Assembly: GCA_028690055.1 (NCBI GenBank) | Contig: JAQVBZ010000003.1 | Span: 7,779 to 71,778 of the forward strand | Source of the DNA: Minisyncoccota bacterium | Lineage (GTDB): Bacteria; Patescibacteriota; Minisyncoccia; JAHIHE01; JAGLIN01 | DNA: 64,000 nt | Direction: 5' to 3' | Shown here: piece after piece, positions 46 to 63,454 of the stretch | Numbering within the stretch: the stretch's first letter is position 1 | Layout: each line of letters begins with the position of its first letter | Notes under the pieces: model-generated | What the model was told of the DNA's origin: nothing | The model's database searches: none | Seen by the model: only the letters and a program-made list of their open reading frames with translations | Program-made: the position numbers and the translations under genes

Positions 46-73
46 GGGATTCTTCGGGGTACCTCAGAATGAC
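46..73. repeat. Solo arm of the REP/MITE-like repeat family (GGGATTCTTCGGGGTACCTCAGAATGACA)
   Basis: 28-nt match to the core CTGAGGTACTCCGAAGGATCCC / reverse complement that recurs about 10 times in the window; it lies just downstream of the minus-strand deacylase gene. Confidence 0.6.
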
Positions 74-126
74 ACGATATCTATAGTTACCAATACCACG
101 ACAAAAATTATCGGGATTCCTTCTTC

Positions 127-10946: not shown

Positions 10947-11027
10947 GTATCATCCTGAATGTAGCGGAGCGGAACGAAGGATCCCGTTACTATAATGGGA
11001 TTTTCGGAGTACCTCAGAATGACACGG
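10947..11027. repeat. Two-armed REP/MITE-like element (variant left arm)
   Basis: The left arm ATCATCCTGAATGTAGCGGAGCGGAACGAAGGATCCC is inverted relative to GGGATTTTCGGAGTACCTCAGAATGAC. The element lies directly after the elp3 stop. Confidence 0.6.
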
Positions 11028-14626: not shown

Positions 14627-14689
14627 GGGGGAGGAATAATGCTCTTGTATCCCAATCCTATTTTTCACAGTTCCGTCCCGCGTAATAAC

Positions 14690-14718
14690 GGGATCCTTCG
14701 GAGTACCTCAGAATGACA
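14690..14718. repeat. Solo arm of the REP/MITE-like family, inside the ftsE-ftsX intergenic region
   Basis: GGGATCCTTCGGAGTACCTCAGAATGACAG lies between the ftsE stop (14728) and the ftsX start (14525). Confidence 0.6.
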
Positions 14719-14727
14719 GGTTAAATC

Positions 14728-27747: not shown

Positions 27748-27780
27748 ATGATTAGATTATTTTATTTACTATAGTACCTG

Positions 27781-27870
27781 TCATCCTGAGGTACTCCGAA
27801 GGATTCCGTTATATTCCGCATAGCGTCGGGATTCTTCACTTCGCATCCGCTCCGTTCAGAATGACGCCAT
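27781..27870. repeat. Two-armed REP/MITE-like element between pheS and the NIF3 gene
   Basis: GTCATCCTGAGGTACTCCGAAGGATTCCG ... CGGGATTCTTCACTTCGCATCCGCTCCGTTCAGAATGACG. Confidence 0.6.
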
Positions 27871-38810: not shown

Positions 38811-38842
38811 ACGGGATCCTTCGGAGTACCTCAGGATGACGC
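38811..38842. repeat. Solo arm of the REP/MITE-like family
   Basis: ACGGGATCCTTCGGAGTACCTCAGGATGACGC lies just after the MFS gene stop. A hairpin/G-tract family copy is adjacent at 38625-38665. Confidence 0.6.
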
Positions 38843-38857
38843 ACACGGAGATAAAAC

Positions 38858-40069
38858 TTATTGCTTCCGCAAAGGCAGTATATGCTCTCTATGGCGATTG
38901 TAAACAAAAAATATTAAACCCGTAACTACAATCAGTAAAAATGACAATGCAAAGCCGAGCCGGAAAGAGAAATATGTAATGGCAATTCCGGTAGCGAAAG
39001 GTCCGATTGTTTGGCCAATATCCATAATGGCCGAGAGCGCGCCCAGAGAAGAACCGAGCTTTTCGGGGCTGGTCACTTCTGCGGCGTAGGTACTGGTCGC
39101 AACCGTGGAGAAAGAGAGACCGAGACCAAAGAGCAAGCCCAGCACGATGGCCGCGGTCACAGATTGGAAAAATCCCAGCACACCTATCGACACTCCGAGT
39201 AGCAGCGCCCCGAGCATAATCTGTTTTCTCTTATCCACCCTGTCGGCCAGCTTTCCGAACAAAGGTTTGGAAAGCGCGATGGCCAAAATCTGCGTAGAAA
39301 AAATAACGCCGATTTCCGATGCCGAGATATCGAGCTGCGTCAAATACAAAGGCAGATAAGTTTCGAAAGCACCGTAGGCAAAATATATCGCCATCTCGAC
39401 ACCGGCGGTCGATATCAATCTCTTGTTATCAAAAAGATATTTCAAGTCTGTGTAGAAATCACGTGTGCTCACCTTCGCTCCGCCCTTTCCCTCGTCTTTA
39501 AGAAACACAGTCAAGATAAATACCGGTATCGCCAGAAGAAAAGCAGCCGCATAAACATATTTGTAACCAACGAGAGAGACTCCCTCCTTTGCAAAATAAG
39601 CGATGATAAACCCTCCCAGCATAGGAGCCAGCGCCCGCCCTACTAGAGTAGAAGAAGAATAGAGTCCGAGCTTCTCCCCTTTTGATGCCGCATATTTTTC
39701 AACAATCATCGCCGAGGTTACCGGCCCTAGAATAGCGGTCGCCATCCCATGAAAGAACCTTATGGGGATGAGCCACATCGGAGTGTCTACTGACAAATAG
39801 AGCAAAGGGCAGACGAGAAAGATCGCCCCCGATATCACCAAAAGCTTTTTTCTGCCTATCTTATCCGACATCAGCCCCACGGGAAAGCTGAAAAGTATTC
39901 CTGCCAGAGGCGAAAAAGCGGAAATGAGTCCTATAATTATTTCATTCCCGCCCAGAGCCTGAACGTACAGCGGCAGCACCGGACTCTTGGAAATCGTCGT
40001 CGAGAAGATGGCGAAGAATCCGATCAGTGACAAATAATATATCATGCTCGACTTCAAATCTTTTTTCAT
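38858..40069 (-). CDS. MFS transporter
   Basis: 403 aa with 12 TM helices and the MFS motif A-like loop (GLMSDKIGRKK). Confidence 0.85.
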   Translation of the reverse strand: MKKDLKSSMIYYLSLIGFFAIFSTTISKSPVLPLYVQALGGNEIIIGLISAFSPLAGILFSFPVGLMSDKIGRKKLLVISGAIFLVCPLLYLSVDTPMWLIPIRFFHGMATAILGPVTSAMIVEKYAASKGEKLGLYSSSTLVGRALAPMLGGFIIAYFAKEGVSLVGYKYVYAAAFLLAIPVFILTVFLKDEGKGGAKVSTRDFYTDLKYLFDNKRLISTAGVEMAIYFAYGAFETYLPLYLTQLDISASEIGVIFSTQILAIALSKPLFGKLADRVDKRKQIMLGALLLGVSIGVLGFFQSVTAAIVLGLLFGLGLSFSTVATSTYAAEVTSPEKLGSSLGALSAIMDIGQTIGPFATGIAITYFSFRLGFALSFLLIVVTGLIFFVYNRHREHILPLRKQ

Positions 40070-40159
40070 GCTCTTTTTAAGTAATAAATATAAGTATCGT
40101 AACTGTACACTTTAATCATACGTACACCCTGACCTTACGTAAAAATCACTCACGCGCCT

Positions 40160-40190
40160 ATCATTCTGAGGTACTCCGAAGAATCCTGCA
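40160..40190. repeat. Solo arm of the REP/MITE-like family, between rdgB and the MFS gene
   Basis: TCATTCTGAGGTACTCCGAAGAATCCTGC. Confidence 0.6.
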
Positions 40191-40201
40191 TATCCCGCAC
40201 A

Positions 40202-40792
40202 TTAAAAAGTTTTTACAATCTTCTTGATTTTTCTGATTACCTCACTGTCCGCCTCGCGCTTCTCCTCGATAGTCATCTGTCGCCAAGTCTTATCGATTCT
40301 ATCCACTTTAAAAACAGTACCAAAAGCAAAATTATATTGAAAACCTTGCCCAAAAAACGACCAATCCAGTCTTCCGTCCAGTTTATTAGAAAATGACTGC
40401 ACGGCACCATCAGGATTTGCAATAGCATATGCGCTTTGAAAATAACAAGACAAATCATCGATATTTTCTGTTTCGTTTTTCAGATATTGCAAAAGCTCAG
40501 GCTTATTCATTTCTTTTTCAAACCTCCCTCCCCACCTTTTTACCGACACGCCGGGAAAACCACCCAGAGCGTTCACAAAAAATCCGGTATCGTCACTGAG
40601 CGTAACTTCCCCGCTTGCCGCCGCCCAAGCAAGTGCTTTCTTCTTGGCATTTTCTTCCAGCGAATCGATACCTTCCTCCACCTCTATTTTATCCAATCCC
40701 AAATCTTCATACGACAAAACATCCCAAGTCGGGAAATATTTTCTCCAATCACTTATTTTCCCCGGATTGCCTGAACCGATAAATAGTCTCAT
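40202..40792 (-). CDS. rdgB: Non-canonical purine NTP pyrophosphatase (Ham1/RdgB family)
   Basis: 196 aa with the N-terminal FIGSGNPGKISD (xTGNxGK) motif and SDDTGFFVNALGGFPGVS (DDSGL..ALxGxPGvyS). Confidence 0.7.
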   Translation of the reverse strand: MRLFIGSGNPGKISDWRKYFPTWDVLSYEDLGLDKIEVEEGIDSLEENAKKKALAWAAASGEVTLSDDTGFFVNALGGFPGVSVKRWGGRFEKEMNKPELLQYLKNETENIDDLSCYFQSAYAIANPDGAVQSFSNKLDGRLDWSFFGQGFQYNFAFGTVFKVDRIDKTWRQMTIEEKREADSEVIRKIKKIVKTF

Positions 40793-40906
40793 ATTTTTTG
40801 AATGATAGATTCTATCTATATATTATATCACTCTCCTGCCCCTACGAACACAACAAAAAACACCCCGGAAATCCAGGATGCTTTTTTAAATATCTCAAAA
40901 GAGATA

Positions 40907-41104
40907 TTATGCCTTCTGTACATCAGAAGCGGCAGGACCCTTTGGGGTATCCTTTACTTCGAAAGTAACAGCATCACCTTCTCTAAGGTCGTTGAAATCA
41001 ACGTCGATAAGGTCATTGGCGTGGAAGAAAAGGTCTTTTGCACCATCTTCCGGTGTGATGAAACCGAACTTTTTATCGTTCAGTCTTTTGATTTGTCCTT
41101 GCAT
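40907..41104 (-). CDS. cspA: Cold-shock protein
   Basis: 65 aa with RNP1/RNP2 motifs (KFGFI, FFH) and full-length similarity to the CspA family. Confidence 0.9.
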   Translation of the reverse strand: MQGQIKRLNDKKFGFITPEDGAKDLFFHANDLIDVDFNDLREGDAVTFEVKDTPKGPAASDVQKA

Positions 41105-41369
41105 TTTTTTGTATGTTAAGTAAATAAGTCCGAAGTGATATGTGAAATATTAATAGTGACAATAATATATCCGCATCCTCTTGCGGCAGCCTTAAAATAA
41201 GACCGATCATCTCAAGTTGCAAGACTCAAGCTAACGAGTTGACTATATCATAGAATATTAATACTGTCAAGCATTTTATTAAAGACTCTTTTTTGCCACA
41301 AAGAAGGGGTGATTTTCGTTCGTCTATGCTATTGGAGAGAGTGACAAATTTCAGACGCAAAGCTATAAA

Positions 41370-41565
41370 ACTTTGAATTACGAAATGCTTCATTTTATAA
41401 ATCAATCCTCTTTGTATCATTCTACAGTGCAGTAAAATAAACTCTTGATTGTCTGTCATTCTGAGGTACTCCGAAGAATCCCGTGAGAAAGCGCGAGGAA
41501 TCTGACAATGGGATCCTTCGGAGTACCTCAGAGCCTGCCCTCGACCTGATCGGGGGATGACAAAC
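41370..41565. repeat. Left copy of a ~195-bp inverted repeat flanking the 41685-43220 cassette; it embeds a two-armed REP/MITE-like element (41455-41535)
   Basis: It aligns with the reverse complement of 43433-43630. The shared blocks are CTTTGAATTACGAAATGCTTCATTTTA, GTCATTCTGAGGTACTCCGA(A/G)GAAT(C/T)CCGTGAGAAA and GGGATCCTTCGGAGTA(C/T)CTCAGAGCCTGCCCT(C/T)GA(C/T)CTGATCGGGGGATGACAA. Confidence 0.7.
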
Positions 41566-41684
41566 AAGTTATTCCGTAATTCAAAGGATAAAAAACAAAA
41601 GACCTGGCACTATATGTTTTGATAAAAATTAAAAGCCGGAAAGGTGATTCTCTTTCCGGCCGATGTTTTTTATTTATTGTTTTT

Positions 41685-43220
41685 TTAAGATTTCTCTTGT
41701 ACCCATTTAAGAAGTCTCATAATCCCCTCTCCCGGTTTAGAAGAATTAGATGGGGGTATCTCTGTTTCTTCCTCCACGTATTCCTCCGTTACGGTTTCCG
41801 AAGAGTTGAAACATCTGTGGACAAGATCAAAGAAACCTCCTATGATATTTTTCAGCCCCTCCCCCTGTTCAAGCGGTACCTCTGATTTTTTCTCCGTTTC
41901 CGTTTCCGAAGAGTTAAAGTACGTCGGTACGACTTTCACATAGAAAGTCTTTTCAGCTTTAATATATCTTCCGCTGGCGTCACGTACCTCCACACGAATA
42001 CTCCTGTCTCCACTAGTCTCCACGAACATGATAGATGGAGTCTGCCAATGATAATCACCGGGTGTGGATACCTTTTTCACAAAGGTTCCATCGGCCTTAG
42101 AAAGAAAAATATAGAACGTGTCATCATCTTTGAGACCCGAACACTTCCTAAGATCCAAGGTGAAATAGGTATTCCATGTCACTTCTTTGGGGGTATCGCC
42201 AAAATCAATCGTTATACCACCATCGCCCACCTGGGTTTTTTCGGTAACGGATGTGGTAGTTCTATCTTTTTCACCTGATGATTTTATATATGAGGATTTA
42301 ATATTGATAAGATACGTTTCCTTCTCCAGGACTTTTTTTGCCCCGGAGTCATAAACAATAATATCTATTTTTTTCTCCCCGGAAGAATCGAATATATACT
42401 GCGTTTTAAGTGGACGAGACGGATGCTCAACGAAGAATTTCAGACTCTTGTCTTCGAAACCATCAACTTGAATATTGATGATCGCATCTGTACCGGCATA
42501 GAAACCTCCGAAGTCTAGGGTGACAGATTCTCCTATTCCGGGATTACTTGGCGTAATCCTAACCTTGAAGATAGATTTATTCGACTCTTTTGCGTTATTA
42601 ACAACGAAGATATACGTTTCTTCACGAATCACTCCTAATCTATTATTGACCGTTATCGTCAGATTATACCTTCCATTAGGTAGAGAATCTGTTCGATAAT
42701 TATCTGTGAAGAACGTTCGTTTGGTTGGAATCTCTCCTCCACTGATTGCCCCGCGTATTTTCTGGTCAATAAGGGCCGCTTCATCTCTAGGAACATCGGT
42801 GCCTATCGTGATGTTTATAAAATGATTCTCCTCAGAAACGATAGAAACTTCCAAATCCATCTTACTCGGCTCGATGATACGGAATTCGATTGTCTTCTCT
42901 CCTCCCTTTTGCTTCCCGTCCGTATCAAATACCCCATATTTTATTTTTGTTTTACCTTCTTTGTCCTCACTTGCCCTGAGTTCAATGCGATTAGCGCCTC
43001 CCGTAGGCTGTTCGGTAATTATTTCGAAGAACTTTTTATCGGACTCGGTTATTTTTAGAAGATACCCGCCACTCACAGACAGTACTATTTCCTCATTGTT
43101 AAAAACTTGATAGACAGGAGGATTCTTGGTAGGTATCTGCTGATTGTTTATTTTTAACTTAGCCGTCTCGCTTCCCAAAGCAGGAATACTGCAGAGACAA
43201 CAAATAAGTAAAACTATCAA
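41685..43220 (-). CDS. Secreted repetitive Ig-like/beta-sandwich protein (hypothetical)
   Basis: 511 aa with a signal peptide (MIVLLICCLCSIPALGSE), several ~90-aa beta-rich segments and a C-terminal tandem CFNSSETxTE(E/K)...EIP repeat. Confidence 0.5.
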   Translation of the reverse strand: MIVLLICCLCSIPALGSETAKLKINNQQIPTKNPPVYQVFNNEEIVLSVSGGYLLKITESDKKFFEIITEQPTGGANRIELRASEDKEGKTKIKYGVFDTDGKQKGGEKTIEFRIIEPSKMDLEVSIVSEENHFINITIGTDVPRDEAALIDQKIRGAISGGEIPTKRTFFTDNYRTDSLPNGRYNLTITVNNRLGVIREETYIFVVNNAKESNKSIFKVRITPSNPGIGESVTLDFGGFYAGTDAIINIQVDGFEDKSLKFFVEHPSRPLKTQYIFDSSGEKKIDIIVYDSGAKKVLEKETYLINIKSSYIKSSGEKDRTTTSVTEKTQVGDGGITIDFGDTPKEVTWNTYFTLDLRKCSGLKDDDTFYIFLSKADGTFVKKVSTPGDYHWQTPSIMFVETSGDRSIRVEVRDASGRYIKAEKTFYVKVVPTYFNSSETETEKKSEVPLEQGEGLKNIIGGFFDLVHRCFNSSETVTEEYVEEETEIPPSNSSKPGEGIMRLLKWVQEKS

Positions 43221-43432
43221 GAATACTTTTAATGCGCCCTTTGTTAGTATTTTATCTATCGCTATATTTTTTGTTTTCGTTTCTCATTCCTCCTAGATTT
43301 TTGCTATTCAGCTTTCTTTTTTCTTAAGGTTTCTTGGTTAGAAACATACCACAAATTTCATCTGAAGTCAAGCATGTGGTCTTAAATTCTATTCTGAAGT
43401 GCAGTTCCCTTTTAAACAAAATATCGCTTGTC

Positions 43433-43630
43433 ATCCCCCGATCAGATCAAGGGCAGGCTCTGAGATACTCCGAAGGATCCCGTTATCAGATTCCACGCGT
43501 TTTCTCACGGAATTCCTCGGAGTACCTCAGAATGACGATAATCAAAAGGTCGGTTTACTTAACTTTGGGGTGGCACAAAGAGAATTGAGTTGTAAAATGA
43601 AGCATTTCGTAATTCAAAGGAAGGCGGGAA
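43433..43630. repeat. Right copy (inverted) of the ~195-bp repeat; it embeds a two-armed REP/MITE-like element (43455-43535)
   Basis: Reverse complement of the 41370-41565 copy at about 80% identity. Both termini are near-identical and the middle has diverged. Confidence 0.7.
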
Positions 43631-43711
43631 TCCTGCACGAACGAATACGAATTTACCCTCGCAAAAAAAACAGCAGCGTTTTGACGACTGCTATCTTTAT
43701 GCAAAAAGCCC

Positions 43712-45292
43712 TTAAACTGTGACACTTTTTTTCTTGCGCTTGCGGATGCGGATGAATCCGTAGATGGAAATGATTATCGCCCCGCCACCGATAGCCAAAA
43801 ACTTCCAAGAGTTTTTCGCGCTGTCGCTAATCTCTTCAAGAGGACGGTCGGAAACGTTCTTGGCGCGGATTGAGGAAAGATCGGCTGAACTGGAAATGCT
43901 CTCGACAAGATTGGTGAAAAATATTTCATTGTCCTGGATCGGCGTTTGAAAGAATACCGGTGATGCAAAATCACTGTCCCCGATCACAATCACCTGCCCG
44001 CCACCATTTTGCGCCGTCGAAATCGCAGCCAAAGTATTCTTGCTGCCATTTAGGAAAGAGAGGTTGGTGTTAGGAGTAAGCTTGATATTTTCAGAAATGG
44101 TCTCACTGCCCTTGCTGGAACCTATAAGGCTCTCAACCTCGTAACCGTCCTTGTTTTCTGTTTTGAGAGAAGAGGCCCAGAGGAATGTCAAAGTGTTCAG
44201 TTTGAATAGAGATGGATGATCGCTGAAGTTTTCCTTAACTGCTCTTACCCAATAGGGATACTCGATATAGTATATCGGCGAATTCAATTTGTCGTATACC
44301 AGGTCGTCATTAATCTCTATGCCGTATGTCTTAGTAAAATCATTCATATTGCTCTCGTTCTTTTTTACAAAGAAGCCTTGCTGCAACAAATCGATATCGA
44401 TATTATTCTTTTCTGACATCACTACGACTTTCCCGCCTTTGATAACAAAGTCATCCAAGACCGCTATCTCCTCCGCACTCAAAGTACTCGTCGGACCGGC
44501 GATGATCAAAGTCTTAGGTGAGACCGATTCTTTTTTCTCTATCTCGCCTTCCGCGGTAGCGACGGCCACGTAGAAACCCTTACTATCCTCTTCGGTGGAA
44601 ATGTTTACATCCTTGATCGTGTAAGACTTGGCCAGGTCGGTCGTAACTATAGCTTTCTCTCCGTGTCCTTGCAGGAAGGCGACGACTTCTTTATTTTCTG
44701 TGGAAACAGAATAGACGGCCGAGATCAGGTCATATTCAAAACTTCCCAACGCCGTGACGCTAGCGAGCGTTTCCGTCTTTGCATTACTCCCCTCGCCGGC
44801 AGAGATAGTCGCGCCGAAGAAGAAATTCTTGACCTCATACTTGTCCTTTTCCACCACCTGTCCTTGCAACTGAGGGATACCCTTGGATGCCAGATCCTGT
44901 ACGGTAGCAGTTTCATTGTCCGGCGCTTCGTATTTTACTGCCAGTTTACCTTTGGATAAATCTTCATATTGGTTCAGAAGGTCCTGAATTTGGGTCTTGA
45001 AAATAACATAATCCGACGGCAGATCTTTGGAGATGAAGAAAGTTACTGTCACCGGCTCGTCCAAGTTATTCAAGATATTTTTTGACGCTGGCGAAGCAGT
45101 ATATATCTTGTCCTGCGTTAGGTCCAGATAGAAGGAACTTTGCGAAACGAGATAATTAAAAGCCAGAAGGAAGACAAGGAAAATCACAGCCGAACCCTGA
45201 GTCGACTTCAACAAAGAGCCTTGCGACCTTTTAGTGATTGATGATAATTTCGGAATTTTTTTATTCATAAGATTAATTAGGGTTATTGACAA
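43712..45292 (-). CDS. GldG-like auxiliary component of an ABC-2 transporter
   Basis: 526 aa with an N-terminal TM, a large extracytoplasmic domain and a C-terminal TM with a basic tail (IRIRKRKKKSVTV). It is directly downstream of the ABC ATPase and ABC-2 permease, a GldA/GldF/GldG-type arrangement. Confidence 0.55.
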   Translation of the reverse strand: MSITLINLMNKKIPKLSSITKRSQGSLLKSTQGSAVIFLVFLLAFNYLVSQSSFYLDLTQDKIYTASPASKNILNNLDEPVTVTFFISKDLPSDYVIFKTQIQDLLNQYEDLSKGKLAVKYEAPDNETATVQDLASKGIPQLQGQVVEKDKYEVKNFFFGATISAGEGSNAKTETLASVTALGSFEYDLISAVYSVSTENKEVVAFLQGHGEKAIVTTDLAKSYTIKDVNISTEEDSKGFYVAVATAEGEIEKKESVSPKTLIIAGPTSTLSAEEIAVLDDFVIKGGKVVVMSEKNNIDIDLLQQGFFVKKNESNMNDFTKTYGIEINDDLVYDKLNSPIYYIEYPYWVRAVKENFSDHPSLFKLNTLTFLWASSLKTENKDGYEVESLIGSSKGSETISENIKLTPNTNLSFLNGSKNTLAAISTAQNGGGQVIVIGDSDFASPVFFQTPIQDNEIFFTNLVESISSSADLSSIRAKNVSDRPLEEISDSAKNSWKFLAIGGGAIIISIYGFIRIRKRKKKSVTV

Positions 45293-55934: not shown

Positions 55935-56030
55935 TTTTGTTATTCTGAAGAATCCCGTCATATACCACGGGATAAACAAGATAACTATTATTTCGTCATT
56001 CCGAGGTACCCCGAAAAATCCCTTCATTTT
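55935..56030. repeat. Two-armed degenerate REP/MITE-like element
   Basis: TGTTATTCTGAAGAATCCCGTC ... GTCATTCCGAGGTACCCCGAAAAATCCC. A hairpin/G-tract family copy is adjacent at 56150-56188. Confidence 0.5.
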
Positions 56031-57988: not shown

Positions 57989-58158
57989 AAGATTGTTTTA
58001 AAATCTTAAAAATATAACTTAATAATCCCATTTTATAAGAAAGCTGTCAAAGAAAATAACTTAAATTCTATTCTGAAATGCAATCCCCTTTTAAACAAAA
58101 GACATCTCGTTTGAGGTATAATAGTTACGTAGAATAACTAATCATTAACCCTAACGAA

Positions 58159-59128
58159 ATGTCCTATCAACAGCTTACATTAAAACAACGTTTTCAACTA
58201 GAGACACTACGGCAGACTATGGGAACCCAGAAAGAGATAGCGGTGTGGATGAGAATAAGCGCTAGTACTGTTTCTCGTGAACTCAGAAGGAACAGGAAGG
58301 AAGGTTATGAGGCGCGCAGCGCCCATAGCCTCTGCAAGAGGCGCAGGAAAGAAGCCAAGCGTGTAACCAAGAAGCTCTTGCATGATAAAGAGGTTTATAC
58401 TTTTGTGAAAGATAAAATCACAATAGGTTGGTCACCGAAGCAGATCGCAGGACGCTTGAGAGATGATACGGGATTGATTATCTGTCACGAGACCATCTAT
58501 GATTTTATCTATACGAAAAAGAAAGAGTGGATCGAATGTTTAAGAAGAAAGAAAAACAAATACCGCAGGAATAAAGGAACCAAAACGAGGGAAAAAAGGC
58601 GAGAAGAAGCCAAAAAAAAGGATTGATACCAGACCGAGTGTGGTGGAAACGAGAGAAAGGATCGGAGACTGGGAAGGAGGTACTATCGTAGGAGGAGAGA
58701 AGATAACAGGTATCATTACCTCTGTAGAAAGGAGAAGTGGATGTTTATTGGGAGATCTATTTTTAAAAAAGAAAGCGGAAGTAATCAAGATAAAAACAGT
58801 TGCCAGATTCAAGAAGATTCCGGTTGATAAGAAATACACCATTACCTATGATAATGATGTAGAGTTCTCAGAGTATGAGATGATTAAGAAAGAAACAGGA
58901 ATGGATATATACTTTGCTTATCCCTATTACTCATGGGAGAGGGGAACCAATGAGAATACCAATGGACTTCTGAGACAGTTCTTTCCTAAAAAAAGTATGT
59001 TTGCTAAACTGACACAAATGGACGTTGATAAAGCCATTCTGCTTATCAACAATCGTACCAGGAAAAGACTTGGCTATCTGACCCCTTACGAGGTTTTTAT
59101 TGAAGGGAAGAATTGCAGTCCAAGGTAG
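58159..59128 (+). mobile_element. IS30-family insertion sequence; transposase split by a frameshift in an A8 run at about 58608-58616
   Basis: OrfA (58159-58626) carries the IS30 HTH (KEIAVWMRISASTVSRELRRN). OrfB (58640-59128) carries the DDE domain (GDWEGGTIVG, YDNDVEFSEY, YSWERGTNENTNGLLRQFFPK). Reading across the A8 tract in the +1 frame joins them as ...AKKKRIDTRPSVVETRERIGDWEGGT. The terminal inverted repeats were not resolved by eye. Confidence 0.8.
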
Positions 59129-59886
59129 AATGTACGAAATGCCACCCATTGCGATAAGCAACAGGGAAACGGCCAATATCAGTCCTTGTCTTTTCATAAA
59201 ACTTTATTTAGATAAAATTATACCCCTCCTCTATATCTTTAAAAAATTTTGTTTTCAAAAAAACACTCTGCCGAATCGGACAGAGTTTTTTCGCAAAACA
59301 GGACAGACGGAATAATTGATGCTGATTCGAGGCTAATGCATATTTCGATTATTGATCGCATTTATTTACACAATAGACTAAAAAATAGAGGATGGCAAGC
59401 GTTTGCGGAACATGAATCAGGTCGCGTCTATTGCCATCCCTAACTCACTTGCATTTTAAGCCTTCTATTCCAACCAAAAGTTTCAATGTGATGTATTTTG
59501 ATTCCCCGCTTTAAGAGAGGCGGCGTCAACATAAGCGTAGCATTGTTGCCGCGCGGGGTGTGTGGGAACGGCCTGCTACTCATAACTTCAATATCACATA
59601 GCGATTGCGTTTATTAAAATGTAAATCATCAGTTGTTAGTCGATTCAACACACCCCTCGCAACGTTATAGCTCTTCCCTTCTCGAGAGGGGAATCTGATC
59701 CAGATTCTTCGGATGAAAATATACTACGGGAAATACAGGTGGAACATATTGCCATCTAAATACTAGGTTAGCCTAACCTGTATAATATTGTATTTTTTTA
59801 CGATATAAAACGAAGATTCCGGGTCGAGCCCGGAATTACAAGATAATAAAAAATACGAATAATATTATAATAAAGTCTACGTCGCC

Positions 59887-61030: not shown

Positions 61031-61108
61031 TGTCACGCTGAGGGTAGTGTAGGATTCCGTTACTATGCGGGATATTACGGGATCCTTCGGAGTACCTCAG
61101 GATAACAC
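61031..61108. repeat. Two-armed REP/MITE-like element between the ABC permease and ATPase genes
   Basis: TGTCACGCTGAGGGTAGTGTAGGATTCCG ... GGGATCCTTCGGAGTACCTCAGGATAACACG, inside the permease-ATPase operon junction. Confidence 0.6.
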
Positions 61109-62778: not shown

Positions 62779-63454
62779 TGAAGGTTTTAATGCCGCGGGA
62801 TATTTTCTATATATACTTGGCTCACCTGCTTTTCCTATGGCTTATTTCATGCTAATAAATCTGGAATTATGCCAGATTAACTTATTTTGAATTACAAAAT
62901 ACCTTACTTGTTATTCCTGTACAAGTTAGACAGTTCGCTGACAAAATACTACATAATTTTCATCTATATGATATTTTTCGTGTGTCATGCTGGGCTTGAC
63001 CCGGTATCTTCTTTATATTTCGCTTTTACTTTGCCATAACGCTTAATCGTTATACTCCGTAGATTCCGGATATTTCGCAGTAACGAAATTCCGGAATGAC
63101 AAATATCGTGGATTTGGTGTTTAAGAAAAATTCTTCGAAAGATTCTTTTAAAAGTGTCAGCGAATCATCCGGCTTGCACAATTCCGTAAGGACCCCTTGA
63201 GAAGTAGCCTTAGACAAATCTCCTTATCATAAAAGTTCAGCAATAAACCGAGGGATTCCTCCGCTTTGCTGAGGAATGACAAAATGTCGGTTTTATTACG
63301 GAGAATACAGTCTGGATGATTTGAAAAAGTATTCTTAAGATTAGAATTAAATAAGAACTTGCTTCCATTCCCTCTCCCACCGGGATTATCGCCGTGCCAT
63401 AGTAAAGTGACGGCAGGAGGGCGTTAGGGGGATAATTATTTCACTATCAATCAT

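What the first reader, a model, noticed from the sequence alone, without database searches (positions are those of the whole stretch)
41370..43630. 1.9-kb cassette encoding a secreted Ig-like protein, bracketed by diverged ~195-bp inverted repeats
Regions 41370-41565 and 43433-43630 are reverse complements of each other at about 80% identity. Their outer ~60 bp and several inner blocks are nearly identical. They enclose exactly one gene (41685-43220, a 511-aa secreted repetitive beta-sandwich protein) plus its 5' region. Each repeat copy contains one two-armed member of the dispersed REP/MITE-like family, and further conserved sequence (TAAAATGAAGCATTTCGTAATTCAAAG) specific to this pair. The geometry looks like an invertible or mobilisable cassette carrying a surface protein, such as a phase-variation shufflon or a composite element. 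Alternatively, two ancient MITE insertions may simply have been fixed on either side. No recombinase lies inside or next to it. An IS30 element lies 15 kb away, and a short motif next to the right repeat (CTTAAATTCTATTCTGAAGTGCAGTTCCCTTTTAAACAAAA, 43381-43421) recurs just upstream of that IS30 (58062-58102).
Basis: seen in the sequence. Interest (0 to 1): 0.62.

Follow-up and report, generated by a model that had tools for sequence, protein, structure and literature searches.

The report
Two IS982-derived MITEs flanking one gene
The inverted repeats are real, but they are two decaying copies of a small transposase-less transposon (an IS982-family MITE common in CPR bacteria) that landed on either side of a long-resident, fast-evolving secreted-protein gene. 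Nothing points to a switchable or imported cassette, so the finding is ordinary.

Summary
In detail: 41371-41563 and 43619-43428 are reverse complements (166/193, 86%, E 1.7e-60) and enclose one gene. The organism is a Candidatus Paceibacterota (CPR) bacterium.

The outer 18 nt of both arms (CTTTGAATTACGAAATGC) is the terminal inverted repeat of an IS982-family insertion sequence. A capped metagenome scan hit more than 120 loci. There the same ends bound 74-238-bp MITEs and ~1-kb elements that encode a 267-269-aa DDE transposase, often with 5-9-bp target duplications.

The left copy (41371-41586) is a complete 216-bp MITE with both ends and a 6/7 duplication (TATAAAA/GATAAAA). The right copy has lost its inner end, which now abuts a 41-nt remnant of the left end of the IS30 element 15 kb away.

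The enclosed gene is not cargo. Relatives whose GldG is 64-78% identical carry a homologous gene at the same place and on the same strand, without the MITEs. Its conserved promoter and its terminator both lie inside the repeat pair, so inversion would switch nothing.

Five other assemblies are identical across the cassette and show the same orientation. No recombinase was found in the window.

Verdict: two independent MITE insertions, a new member of a known kind, of low interest.

The parts
41364..41370 (.). Target-site duplication, left copy (TATAAAA), abutting the outer end of the left MITE
   Evidence: Matches GATAAAA at 41587-41593 in 6 of 7 positions. The chance of at least 6/7 for random window 7-mers is 0.002. 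Family members have 5-9-bp AT-rich duplications.
41371..41586 (+). Left MITE, complete, 216 bp. It has an outer TIR CTTTGAATTACGAAATGC (41371-41388) and an inner TIR ending ...ATTCCGTAATTCAAAG (41571-41586).
   Evidence: the repeat finder I6 finds 16-nt terminal inverted repeats at 94%. The TIR matches the family 16-mer with 0 and 1 mismatch. As single-stranded DNA it folds into a long hairpin, -41.6 kcal/mol, z -7.5. It has no coding capacity of its own.
41455..41563 (+). Core of the left MITE: a two-armed member of the dispersed REP-like hairpin family (GTCATTCTGAGGTACTCCGAAGAATCCC ... GGGATCCTTCGGAGTACCTCAGA ... GGGGGATGAC)
   Evidence: (I3: 23-nt arms, 96%). It is 92% identical to the right copy.
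41587..41593 (.). Target-site duplication, right copy (GATAAAA), abutting the inner end of the left MITE
41634..41661 (-). Intrinsic terminator of the enclosed gene (GGCCGGAAAG..CTTTCCGGC followed by a T-run). It lies between the gene and the left MITE.
   Evidence: It is conserved in relatives L009 and L144 (78.8% over 52 nt), which have no MITE after it.
41685..43220 (-). Resident gene for a 511-aa secreted tandem beta-sandwich (Ig/FN3-like) protein. It is fast-evolving and varies in domain number between relatives.
   Evidence: ORF. Only its own 90% cluster turns up in the 5.8-billion-protein search, and 8 proteins in the exhaustive HMMER search. Positional orthologues are shown.
43343..43371 (-). 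Sigma-70-type promoter of the gene (TTGACT-17-TATGTT with TG), 9 nt from the inner edge of the right insert
   Evidence: It aligns with the corresponding sequences of L009, L012 and L144.
43381..43421 (+). Solo remnant of the left terminal inverted repeat (IRL plus 15 subterminal nt) of the IS30-family element, fused to the truncated inner end of the right MITE
   Evidence: 38/41 identical to 58060-58100. That sequence pairs with the IS30 right end.
43428..43619 (-). Right MITE, inverted relative to the left copy. It keeps the outer TIR (43602-43619) and the core, but lacks its last ~23 nt, including the inner TIR.
   Evidence: No second TIR-like site with up to 3 mismatches lies between 43221 and 43427. 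No duplication of its outer flank GAAGGCG is present.
58060..59136 (+). IS30-family element, 1077 bp. It is the source type of the 41-nt remnant and is not otherwise part of the structure.
   Evidence: TIRs CTTAAATTCTATTCTGAAATGCAATCC / CGTACATTCTACCTTGGACTGCAATTC, as I read them from the alignment. Transposase halves 58159-58626 and 58640-59128 hit NF033563 IS30 at E 1e-20 and 4e-42.

Best explanation
The two ~193-bp arms are two copies of one subfamily of a non-autonomous IS982-family element (a MITE).

Shown: an IS982-family DDE transposase gene sits inside ~1-kb elements that end in the same 18-bp inverted repeat, CTTTGAATTACGAAATGC. Short elements of 74-238 bp with those same ends are scattered through CPR metagenomes, commonly with 5-9-bp AT-rich target duplications.

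Inferred: such a transposase, supplied in trans from elsewhere in the genome or in an ancestor, inserted one copy into the intergenic spacer downstream of the gene's terminator. That copy is complete and carries a 7-bp duplication. In a separate event, a second copy went in the opposite orientation into the spacer between the gldG terminator and the gene's promoter.

Inferred: an IS30-family element later inserted at the inner edge of the right copy. A deletion then removed most of that IS together with the MITE's inner end, leaving a 41-nt IS30 stub.

Shown: the enclosed gene, with its own promoter and terminator, is an old resident of this position downstream of the gldA/F/G-like ABC transporter genes.

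The inverted geometry is therefore a by-product of two insertions into the two nearest AT-rich spacers. It is not a functional inversion or mobilisation module. The copies now look immobile or decaying: they are 14% diverged, one end is lost, and the 64-kb window holds no IS982 transposase.
For: Family ends:
- The outer 21-mer of the arms hits paired ends in two other Parcubacteria genomes. L007 carries a 164-bp element with a GAATTA duplication and L008 a 128-bp element.
Of 122 loci examined, 76 have paired inverted ends.
- 58 distinct elements split into 51 of 74-238 bp and 7 of 911-1018 bp. An exact abutting duplication of at least 5 bp occurs in 38%, against 1.9% with mismatched flanks.
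- Conservation stops sharply outside positions 1-18.

Parental IS:
- All ~1-kb elements encode a 267-269-aa protein.
- It hits NF033520 IS982 at E 1e-37 and PF13612 at E 2e-30.
- It has 1988 homologues at E<=1e-10. Sources name several 'IS982 family transposase [Patescibacteria group bacterium]', and others come from Jorgensenbacteria and Yanofskybacteria.

This locus:
- The left copy has both TIRs and a 6/7 duplication with chance probability 0.002.
- The gene is resident. L009, L144, L011, L012 and L015 all have a same-strand gene with no Pfam hit directly after gldG. Homology to the 511-aa protein is seen for four of them: L009 and L144 at 42-44% identity, L015 at E 4.5e-11, and L012 at E 4e-7. 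The truncated L011 gene is positional only (E 0.033).
- None of the four loci searched (L009, L011, L012, L015) has a MITE or REP match.
- L144 and L009 serve as empty-site comparators. In L144 the terminator-to-promoter spacer is 37 nt. In the window it is 39 nt, then the 239-bp insert, then 8 nt. The terminator-to-csp spacer is about 75 nt in the relatives against 336 nt in the window.
- The promoter and terminator lie inside the pair.
- The 41-nt motif is the IS30 IRL.
Against: - The right copy has only one TIR and no detectable duplication, so its independent insertion is inferred by analogy with the left copy.
- The 193-bp core of this subfamily was not found in any other fetched locus. 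Multi-copy status in this genome is therefore shown only by these two copies.
- The rest of the genome could not be read, and the window contains no IS982 transposase.
- Divergence between the copies is mosaic: TIR 100%, spacer 68%, hairpin core 92%. This is not simple uniform decay. It could mean different master copies, or homogenisation of the REP-like core.
- The NCBIfam IS982 scores (129.9 and 119.7 bits) fall just under the curated cut-off of 130.
- The TIR conservation profile is biased by the search pattern that was used.
Confidence: 0.85

Rival explanations
1. Invertible (phase-variable) cassette. Recombination between the two arms flips the 2-kb segment and thereby switches or alters expression of the surface protein.
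For: The inverted geometry is real and encloses a hypervariable secreted-protein gene. Perfect identity runs of 27, 20, 18, 16 and 15 nt exist, so rare RecA-type exchange cannot be excluded.
Against: - No tyrosine or serine recombinase was found among 32 scanned ORFs or the neighbours' precomputed Pfam calls.
- The promoter, ORF and terminator all lie inside the segment, so a flip changes nothing in cis.
- Five other assemblies, from different samples, show one orientation with zero SNPs.
- Orthologues in relatives have the same orientation without any repeats.
- The arms are 14% diverged, whereas frequent exchange would be expected to homogenise them.
- The arms are explained as transposon copies.
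Confidence: 0.03
2. MITE-bounded composite transposon. The two copies act through their intact outer ends and brought the gene here, or still move it, as one 2249-bp unit.
For: Both outer TIRs are intact and identical (27/27) and face outward in the orientation a composite needs. MITE pairs that mobilise intervening DNA are documented elsewhere. Examples are Acinetobacter MITEs flanking class 1 integrons and MITE-297 (PMC6382973), and TIME-COMPs (PMC13367494).
Against: - There is no shared duplication around the unit: TATAAAA vs GAAGGCG.
- The left copy has its own duplication across its own two ends, so it inserted alone.
- The cargo gene, its promoter and its terminator are ancestral at this site in relatives that lack the MITEs.
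- No second copy of the unit was seen. Every protein-cluster member that could be located sits at this same locus.
- The window holds no IS982 transposase.
Confidence: 0.05
3. Inverted segmental duplication. One intergenic stretch was copied in inverted orientation by replication or repair error, with no transposition involved.
For: Only two copies of this particular core are known, and the right copy lacks transposon hallmarks at its inner end.
Against: - Homology starts exactly at base 1 of a transposon end shared by hundreds of elements.
- The left copy carries a second, inverted end and a flanking duplication.
- The flanks outside the arms are unrelated.
Confidence: 0.03
4. Domesticated regulatory elements. 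After insertion, the copies were retained because they act on the neighbouring genes. Possible roles are a read-through barrier or hairpin terminator between gldG and the gene, or a source of outward promoters. This reading is compatible with the best explanation.
For: - The right insert ends 9 nt from the -35 box of the gene's promoter.
- The outer TIR region reads TTGAAT-17-TATAAA in the left copy. This is my reading of the sequence. The scan did not list this hexamer pair among its hits.
- The elements fold into very stable hairpins.
- Both copies are fixed in all assemblies.
Against: There are no expression data. The promoter-like hexamers are not conserved in the right copy (TACAAC) or in family members. 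Fixation among 99.8%-identical strains carries little weight.
Confidence: 0.1

Closest known systems
IS982-family-derived MITEs, e.g. the ~240-bp MITE derived from ISCca4 in the Cardinium endosymbiont cOegib (PMC9769881)
   Same: Both are short (about 200-240 bp) transposase-less elements whose terminal inverted repeats match those of a co-occurring IS982-family IS. They are intergenic and are presumably mobilised in trans (here).
   Different: The host clade is different (CPR/Patescibacteria). The interior is unrelated to the parental IS and is built around a REP-like hairpin. Only two copies of this subfamily have been seen so far. One copy is truncated by an IS30 remnant.
MITE-bounded composite structures: Acinetobacter MITE pairs flanking class 1 integrons, MITE-297 flanking a 76-kb mer region (PMC6382973), and TIME-COMPs (PMC13367494)
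   Same: Two copies of a non-autonomous element bracket a DNA segment, with intact outer ends.
   Different: The segment here is an ancestral chromosomal gene present in relatives without the MITEs. There is no duplication around the unit. The left copy has its own duplication. The copies are 14% diverged rather than identical.
DNA inversion switches: fimS/FimBE, Hin/Gin invertases, Bacteroides invertons, the R64 shufflon (from established knowledge)
   Same: Inverted repeats flank a segment associated with a surface protein.
   Different: Those systems use short (about 9-30 bp) recombinase-specific repeats. They have a dedicated tyrosine or serine recombinase encoded nearby. They invert a promoter or alternative coding segments, so orientation matters. 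None of these features is present here.
REP/BIME-type dispersed extragenic palindromes (from established knowledge)
   Same: The core of each copy belongs to a dispersed family of ~30-nt hairpin arms found at gene ends throughout the window.
   Different: In this pair the hairpin is embedded between IS982-type ends. No RAYT (IS200/IS605-type) gene was seen, and the family itself was not characterised further.

Membership tests
MITE (miniature inverted-repeat transposable element) | Terminal inverted repeats at both ends | tested here: met
   Left copy: 41371-41386 vs 41571-41586, 16 nt at 94%. The right copy retains only the outer TIR, so it is a truncated member.
MITE (miniature inverted-repeat transposable element) | Small size and no transposase gene | tested here: met
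   The copies are 216 bp and 192 bp. The only ORFs crossing them are the spurious reading frames listed. There is no transposase similarity.
MITE (miniature inverted-repeat transposable element) | Flanking target-site duplication | tested here: met
   Left copy: TATAAAA / GATAAAA, 6/7, chance 0.002. No duplication is detectable for the right copy because its inner end is deleted.
MITE (miniature inverted-repeat transposable element) | TIRs shared with an autonomous IS that can supply transposase | tested here: met
   The same 18-bp end bounds 991-1022-bp elements that encode a DDE transposase: L043, L099, L034, L062, L069, L026 and L073.
MITE (miniature inverted-repeat transposable element) | Multiple copies in the host genome | tested here: inconclusive
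   There are two copies in the 64-kb window and none of this core in any other fetched locus. The rest of the genome (GCA_041673465.1) could not be searched. The species was not in the genome collection scanned.
IS982 family (parental IS of the MITE) | Transposase matches the IS982 family profile | tested here: inconclusive
   NF033520 gives E 1.1e-37 at 129.9 bits and E 1.4e-34 at 119.7 bits, against a curated cut-off of 130. It is by far the best family; the next, IS5, scores 35-50 bits. PF13612 DDE_Tnp_1_3 scores 106-107 bits against a cut-off of 27. NCBI names close homologues 'IS982 family transposase'.
IS982 family (parental IS of the MITE) | About 1-kb element with a single transposase ORF, TIRs and 3-9-bp direct repeats (ISfinder description, from memory) | tested here: met
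   The elements are 991-1022 bp with one 267-269-aa ORF, an 18-bp TIR and duplications mostly of 5-7 bp, up to 9.
DNA inversion switch (inverton / shufflon) | Dedicated site-specific recombinase encoded in or near the element | tested here: not met
   No Phage_integrase, Resolvase or Recombinase hit in 32 window ORFs or in the precomputed Pfam calls within 10 kb on either side. A recombinase elsewhere in the genome cannot be excluded.
DNA inversion switch (inverton / shufflon) | Inversion changes the connection between a promoter and a gene, or swaps coding segments | tested here: not met
   The promoter (43371->43343), the whole ORF and the terminator (41661->41634) are all inside the segment.
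DNA inversion switch (inverton / shufflon) | Both orientations occur in a population | tested here: not met
   Only one orientation appears in the window and in five other assemblies from different samples. This is a weak test, because consensus assemblies hide minority isomers. Read-level data were not available.
Composite transposon | Target-site duplication flanking the whole unit | tested here: not met
   TATAAAA (41364-41370) vs GAAGGCG (43620-43626), 0/7.
Composite transposon | Cargo absent from the site in relatives that lack the flanking elements | tested here: not met
   Homologues of the gene occupy the same site and strand in L009, L144, L012 and L015, with no MITE match there. In L009, L012 and L144 the promoter is also conserved.
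Composite transposon | Cognate transposase available | not testable with these tools
   None is present in the window.

The most novel reading that the evidence does not exclude
The pair is a latent MITE-bounded composite element. Both outer IS982-type ends are perfectly intact (27/27) while the inner ends are mutated or deleted. A clade-specific IS982 transposase could therefore mobilise the 2.2-kb unit, moving a hypervariable surface-protein gene between CPR genomes. That would be a 'MITE-COMP' in a lineage thought to be poor in mobile DNA.
Probability: 0.06. Interest if true: 0.5.

Novelty: new member of a known kind. Interest (0 to 1): 0.2.

Why it matters
On its own, little: MITEs flanking a gene in inverted orientation are a common accident of insertion into neighbouring AT-rich spacers.

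The useful by-product is an annotation key. The 18-bp end CTTTGAATTACGAAATGC identifies a very abundant IS982-family IS/MITE system in CPR/Patescibacteria. The capped scan hit more than 120 metagenome loci, and about 2000 transposase clusters were found. I found no open-access or bioRxiv paper that mentions both IS982 and the Candidate Phyla Radiation.

Recognising these elements prevents them from being misread as regulatory switches. It also helps explain contig breaks in CPR assemblies.

The enclosed gene, a rapidly diverging tandem beta-sandwich protein of variable domain number always encoded next to a gldA/F/G-like ABC transporter, may be the more interesting biology. That does not depend on the repeats.

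Tried and rejected
- I first suspected that the MITE ends derived from the IS30 element, because of a loose resemblance between CTTTGAATTACGAAATGC and the IS30 IRL CTTAAATTCTATTCTGAAATGC. I rejected this once ~1-kb elements with the exact MITE end were found to encode an IS982-type transposase, not an IS30-type one.
- The exact-protein look-up of the window's GldG and of P0001 found nothing. Cluster members P0002, P0004 and P0005 gave the loci instead.
- The word-indexed protein search for the 511-aa protein found only itself. The exhaustive HMMER search found 7 distant relatives.
- The viral-contig scan with the 18-mer gave 6 single, unpaired hits, which I treated as chance or uninformative.
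- The Bacteroidales hit L006 has a single end only and was not interpreted.
- Rfam found nothing relevant in 41200-43800. The only hit was a sub-threshold CyaR match at E 0.86. At gathering thresholds the whole window yields only tRNAs.
- I looked for a frameshift joining the upstream ATG (43287) to the ORF. Comparison with L009 and L144 shows the ATG frame is offset there too. The ATG therefore belongs to a conserved leader or uORF rather than to a broken start.
- The MFS-gene deletion in L004 is not bounded by the two REP arms. One arm is retained, and the junction lies in unique sequence with TTT microhomology.
Full report
**Observation.** The repeats are there. The repeat finder reports two adjoining inverted pairs: 41455-41563/43428-43536 (109 nt, 92%) and 41371-41453/43537-43619 (83 nt, 80%). 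blastn joins them into one 193-bp match, 41371-41563 against 43619-43428, at 86.0% and E 1.7e-60. A global alignment gives 166/193 identities with perfect runs of 27, 20, 18, 16, 15 and 10 nt. Identity is mosaic: 27/27 at the outer end, 68% over the next 57 nt, and 92% over the hairpin core. Between the arms lies one long ORF, 41685-43220 on the minus strand, 511 aa. The 17-mer of the dispersed hairpin family occurs 12 times in the window, against 0.05 expected. The 41-nt motif at 43381-43421 recurs at 58060-58100 with three mismatches.

**Source organism and population.** The 511-aa protein has only its own 90% cluster in the 5.8-billion-protein search. Members of that cluster are annotated as Candidatus Pacebacteria/Paceibacterota MAG proteins, in GCA_041673465.1. 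The 64-kb window is ordinary core chromosome, carrying gyrB, pheS/pheT, prfA, mraY, a Clp ATPase, transporters and tRNAs. Five other assemblies come from ENA, Logan, NCBI and JGI samples (L001-L005). They are 99.8-100% identical to the window and collinear with it. Across 40800-43715 they have no difference at all, and the cassette has the same orientation in each.

**What the arms are.**
- *The left arm is a complete element.* It carries a second, inverted copy of its outer end: CTTTGAATTACGAAAT at 41371-41386 and ATTCCGTAATTCAAAG at 41571-41586 (pair I6). So 41371-41586 is a 216-bp element with terminal inverted repeats. It is flanked by TATAAAA and GATAAAA, a 6/7 match with chance probability 0.002.
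- *The same end occurs in other Parcubacteria genomes.* Searching one genome per species with the outer 21-mer found it in two other Parcubacteria MAGs. In each it is paired in inverted orientation around a short element with an unrelated interior. L007 has a 164-bp element flanked by GAATTA on both sides. L008, a Taylorbacteria MAG, has a 128-bp element.
Of 122 loci, 76 contain paired ends. The 58 distinct elements fall into two size classes: 51 of 74-238 bp and 7 of 911-1018 bp. In addition there is a 1022-bp contig at 98-fold coverage that begins and ends with the repeat.
- *Target duplications are enriched.* Exact abutting duplications of 5-9 bp occur in 38% of elements, against 1.9% when flanks are mismatched between elements.
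- *The conserved end is 18 bp.* Conservation stops abruptly before position 1 and after position 18. This profile is biased by the search pattern.
- *The 1-kb class encodes an IS982-type transposase.* Every member encodes one 267-269-aa protein, and these proteins are 50-89% identical to each other. The protein matches NCBIfam IS982 (E 1e-37, 129.9 bits, cut-off 130) and Pfam DDE_Tnp_1_3 (E 2e-30). It has 1988 homologues at E<=1e-10. Where sources name them, they are called IS982 family transposase from Patescibacteria, or come from Jorgensenbacteria or Yanofskybacteria MAGs.

The arms are therefore IS982-family MITEs. IS982-derived MITEs are already described, for example in Cardinium (PMC9769881).

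**The right copy and the IS30 link.** The right arm keeps the outer TIR and the core but has no inner TIR. Homology to the left copy ends at 43428. Six bases further in begins the 41-nt motif. That motif is not 'upstream of' the IS30. It is the IS30 element's own left end: 58060-58086 pairs with the reverse complement of 59110-59136, so the element spans 58060-59136. The two ORF halves inside it hit the IS30 transposase model. I infer that an IS30 copy inserted at the inner edge of the right MITE. A later deletion then removed most of the IS together with the last ~23 nt of the MITE. This step is inference, and no intermediate was found.

**The enclosed gene is resident, not cargo.**
- *Synteny.* GldG homologues at 78, 74, 65 and 64% identity were traced to their contigs, and the closest homologue of the 511-aa protein was traced to L144. 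In every one a gene with no Pfam hit follows gldG on the same strand. The sizes are 210 aa (L009), 388 aa (L144), at least 257 aa (L011), 393 aa (L012) and 466 aa (L015). The same neighbours, csp and ham1, follow.
- *Homology.* Four of these proteins are detectably homologous to the 511-aa protein. L009 and L144 are 42-44% identical over the C-terminal domain, and L144 also over the N-terminal half. L015 scores E 4.5e-11 and L012 E 4e-7. The truncated L011 gene is matched by position only (E 0.033).
- *No repeats in relatives.* None of the four loci searched (L009, L011, L012, L015) has any match to the MITEs or to the hairpin family.
- *Spacer lengths.* L009 and L144 are close enough for the intergenic DNA to align. 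The gene's terminator and the csp promoter region are conserved. They lie about 75 nt apart in these relatives, against 336 nt in the window. The gldG terminator and the gene's promoter are 37 nt apart in L144. In the window they are separated by 39 nt, then the 239-bp insert, then 8 nt.
- *Promoter and terminator.* The promoter (TTGACT-17-TATGTT, 43371->43343) aligns with the corresponding sequences in L009, L012 and L144. Both it and the terminator (41661->41634) lie inside the repeat pair.

**Consequences for the proposed mechanisms.**
- *Inversion.* Flipping the segment would carry promoter, ORF and terminator together and change nothing in cis. No recombinase was found among 32 scanned ORFs or in the precomputed domain calls for the neighbours. 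Only one orientation is seen. This last test is weak, because consensus assemblies hide minority isomers.
- *Composite transposon.* A composite origin is contradicted by synteny. It is also contradicted by the left copy having its own duplication, and by the absence of a duplication around the pair (TATAAAA vs GAAGGCG). A latent capacity for mobilisation through the two intact outer ends cannot be excluded. MITE pairs that do this are known (PMC6382973; PMC13367494). There is no positive evidence for it here, and the window holds no IS982 transposase.

**The protein.** An AlphaFold2 model built from an 8-sequence alignment is all-beta. Confident domains lie at about 20-117, 120-207 and 335-432, with a low-confidence third domain and an acidic tail. 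Foldseek against the PDB returns tandem Ig/FN3 ectodomains and bacterial adhesin repeats at E 3e-7 to 1e-5. 'Tandem beta-sandwich' is supported. 'Secreted' rests on the hydrophobic N-terminus and on the clear signal peptides of homologues.

**Open points.**
- The core of this MITE subfamily was not found in any other fetched locus, and the rest of the genome could not be read. Copy number beyond two is therefore unknown.
- The uneven divergence of the two copies is unexplained. They may descend from different master copies, or the REP-like core may be homogenised against the other hairpin copies.
- The IS982 assignment falls just short of NCBIfam's curated cut-off, although every other indicator agrees.

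**Verdict.** The element is a new member of a known kind, an IS982-family MITE, here in a CPR bacterium. Interest is low. The main value is recognising the 18-bp end as the signature of a very abundant IS/MITE system in Patescibacteria.

Noticed in passing
window 58060-59136: This IS30-family element has its transposase split into two ORFs (58159-58626 and 58640-59128, frames offset by one) at an A8 run at 58612-58619. It is either an inactivated copy or a homopolymer error. The flanks AA|...|AA are compatible with a 2-bp duplication but carry little information.
   Followed up: partly
window 38954-40250 vs L004 12960-13140: The NCBI MAG (GCA_041673465.1) is 99.8% identical to the window down to about 40250. 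It then lacks 38954-40140, which is most of the MFS transporter gene; a ~95-nt 3' stub remains. Beyond that point it is only 81-83% identical. This is a recombination or deletion breakpoint next to the REP-like hairpin at 40158-40186. The junction shows TTT microhomology and is not REP-to-REP.
   Followed up: partly
window 43220-43298: The first canonical start of the 511-aa ORF (TTG 43220) falls inside the signal-peptide hydrophobic core. In L009 and L144 the protein starts 9-10 codons earlier at GTG/TTG, and those codons are ATA/CTA in the window. Upstream lies a leader, AGGAGGAATGAGAAACGAAAAC, that is 85-91% identical in relatives whose GldG is only 65-78% identical. It contains an 11-codon uORF (43287-43252). 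This may be a conserved 5' regulatory element, or a sign of non-canonical initiation.
   Followed up: partly
L009 3529-4161 vs L144 1693-2859: Two strains whose flanking DNA is about 90% identical encode orthologues of 210 and 388 aa with the same N- and C-termini. Whole beta-sandwich domains are therefore gained or lost quickly. Sizes across the clade are 210, 388, 393, 466 and 511 aa, always directly after a gldA/F/G-like ABC transporter operon.
   Followed up: partly
window 46-74, 10994-11024, 14685-14719, 27778-27812, 38811-38841, 40158-40186, 55993-56022, 61074-61107: A dispersed REP-like hairpin arm (GTCATYCTGAGGTACTCCGAAGRATCCC) lies at gene ends, often followed by a diverged second arm ending ...CAGRATGAC. 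Similar GTCAT... hairpins sit inside IS982-type MITEs of other CPR genomes (L007, L100, L126). This suggests that such hairpins are recurrently captured by, or targeted by, these MITEs.
   Followed up: no
L024-L143 (metagenome loci); L043, L099, L034, L062, L069, L026, L073: A very large IS982-family IS/MITE system shares one 18-bp end in groundwater and sediment metagenomes. Several contigs carry 2-4 MITEs within a few kb (L089, L103, L105, L116, L055, L088, L113). Most transposase-bearing contigs are about 1 kb, so these elements break assemblies. One close transposase homologue is labelled Nanoarchaeota (P0141).
   Followed up: partly
L009 3296-3420: The same gldG-to-gene spacer that holds the right MITE in the window holds a different REP-like hairpin in L009 (GGGATCCCAGATATCTCTCTTATGAGAGATTCCGGGATGAC). 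In L144 it holds nothing. The spacer is a recurrent landing site for small repeats.
   Followed up: partly
window 62885-62900: A degenerate TIR-like sequence, TTTTGAATTACAAAAT, differs from the family 16-mer at two positions. No inverted partner was seen within 500 bp. It may be a decayed solo end.
   Followed up: no
P0008 and P0012 (distant homologues of the 511-aa protein): These homologues end in a hydrophobic helix followed by basic residues and preceded by PAF/PGF (…LPGFSSGLALMILLLSGKMWRR). This resembles PGF-CTERM-type sorting signals. The family may include cell-surface-anchored versions, possibly in archaea.
   Followed up: no
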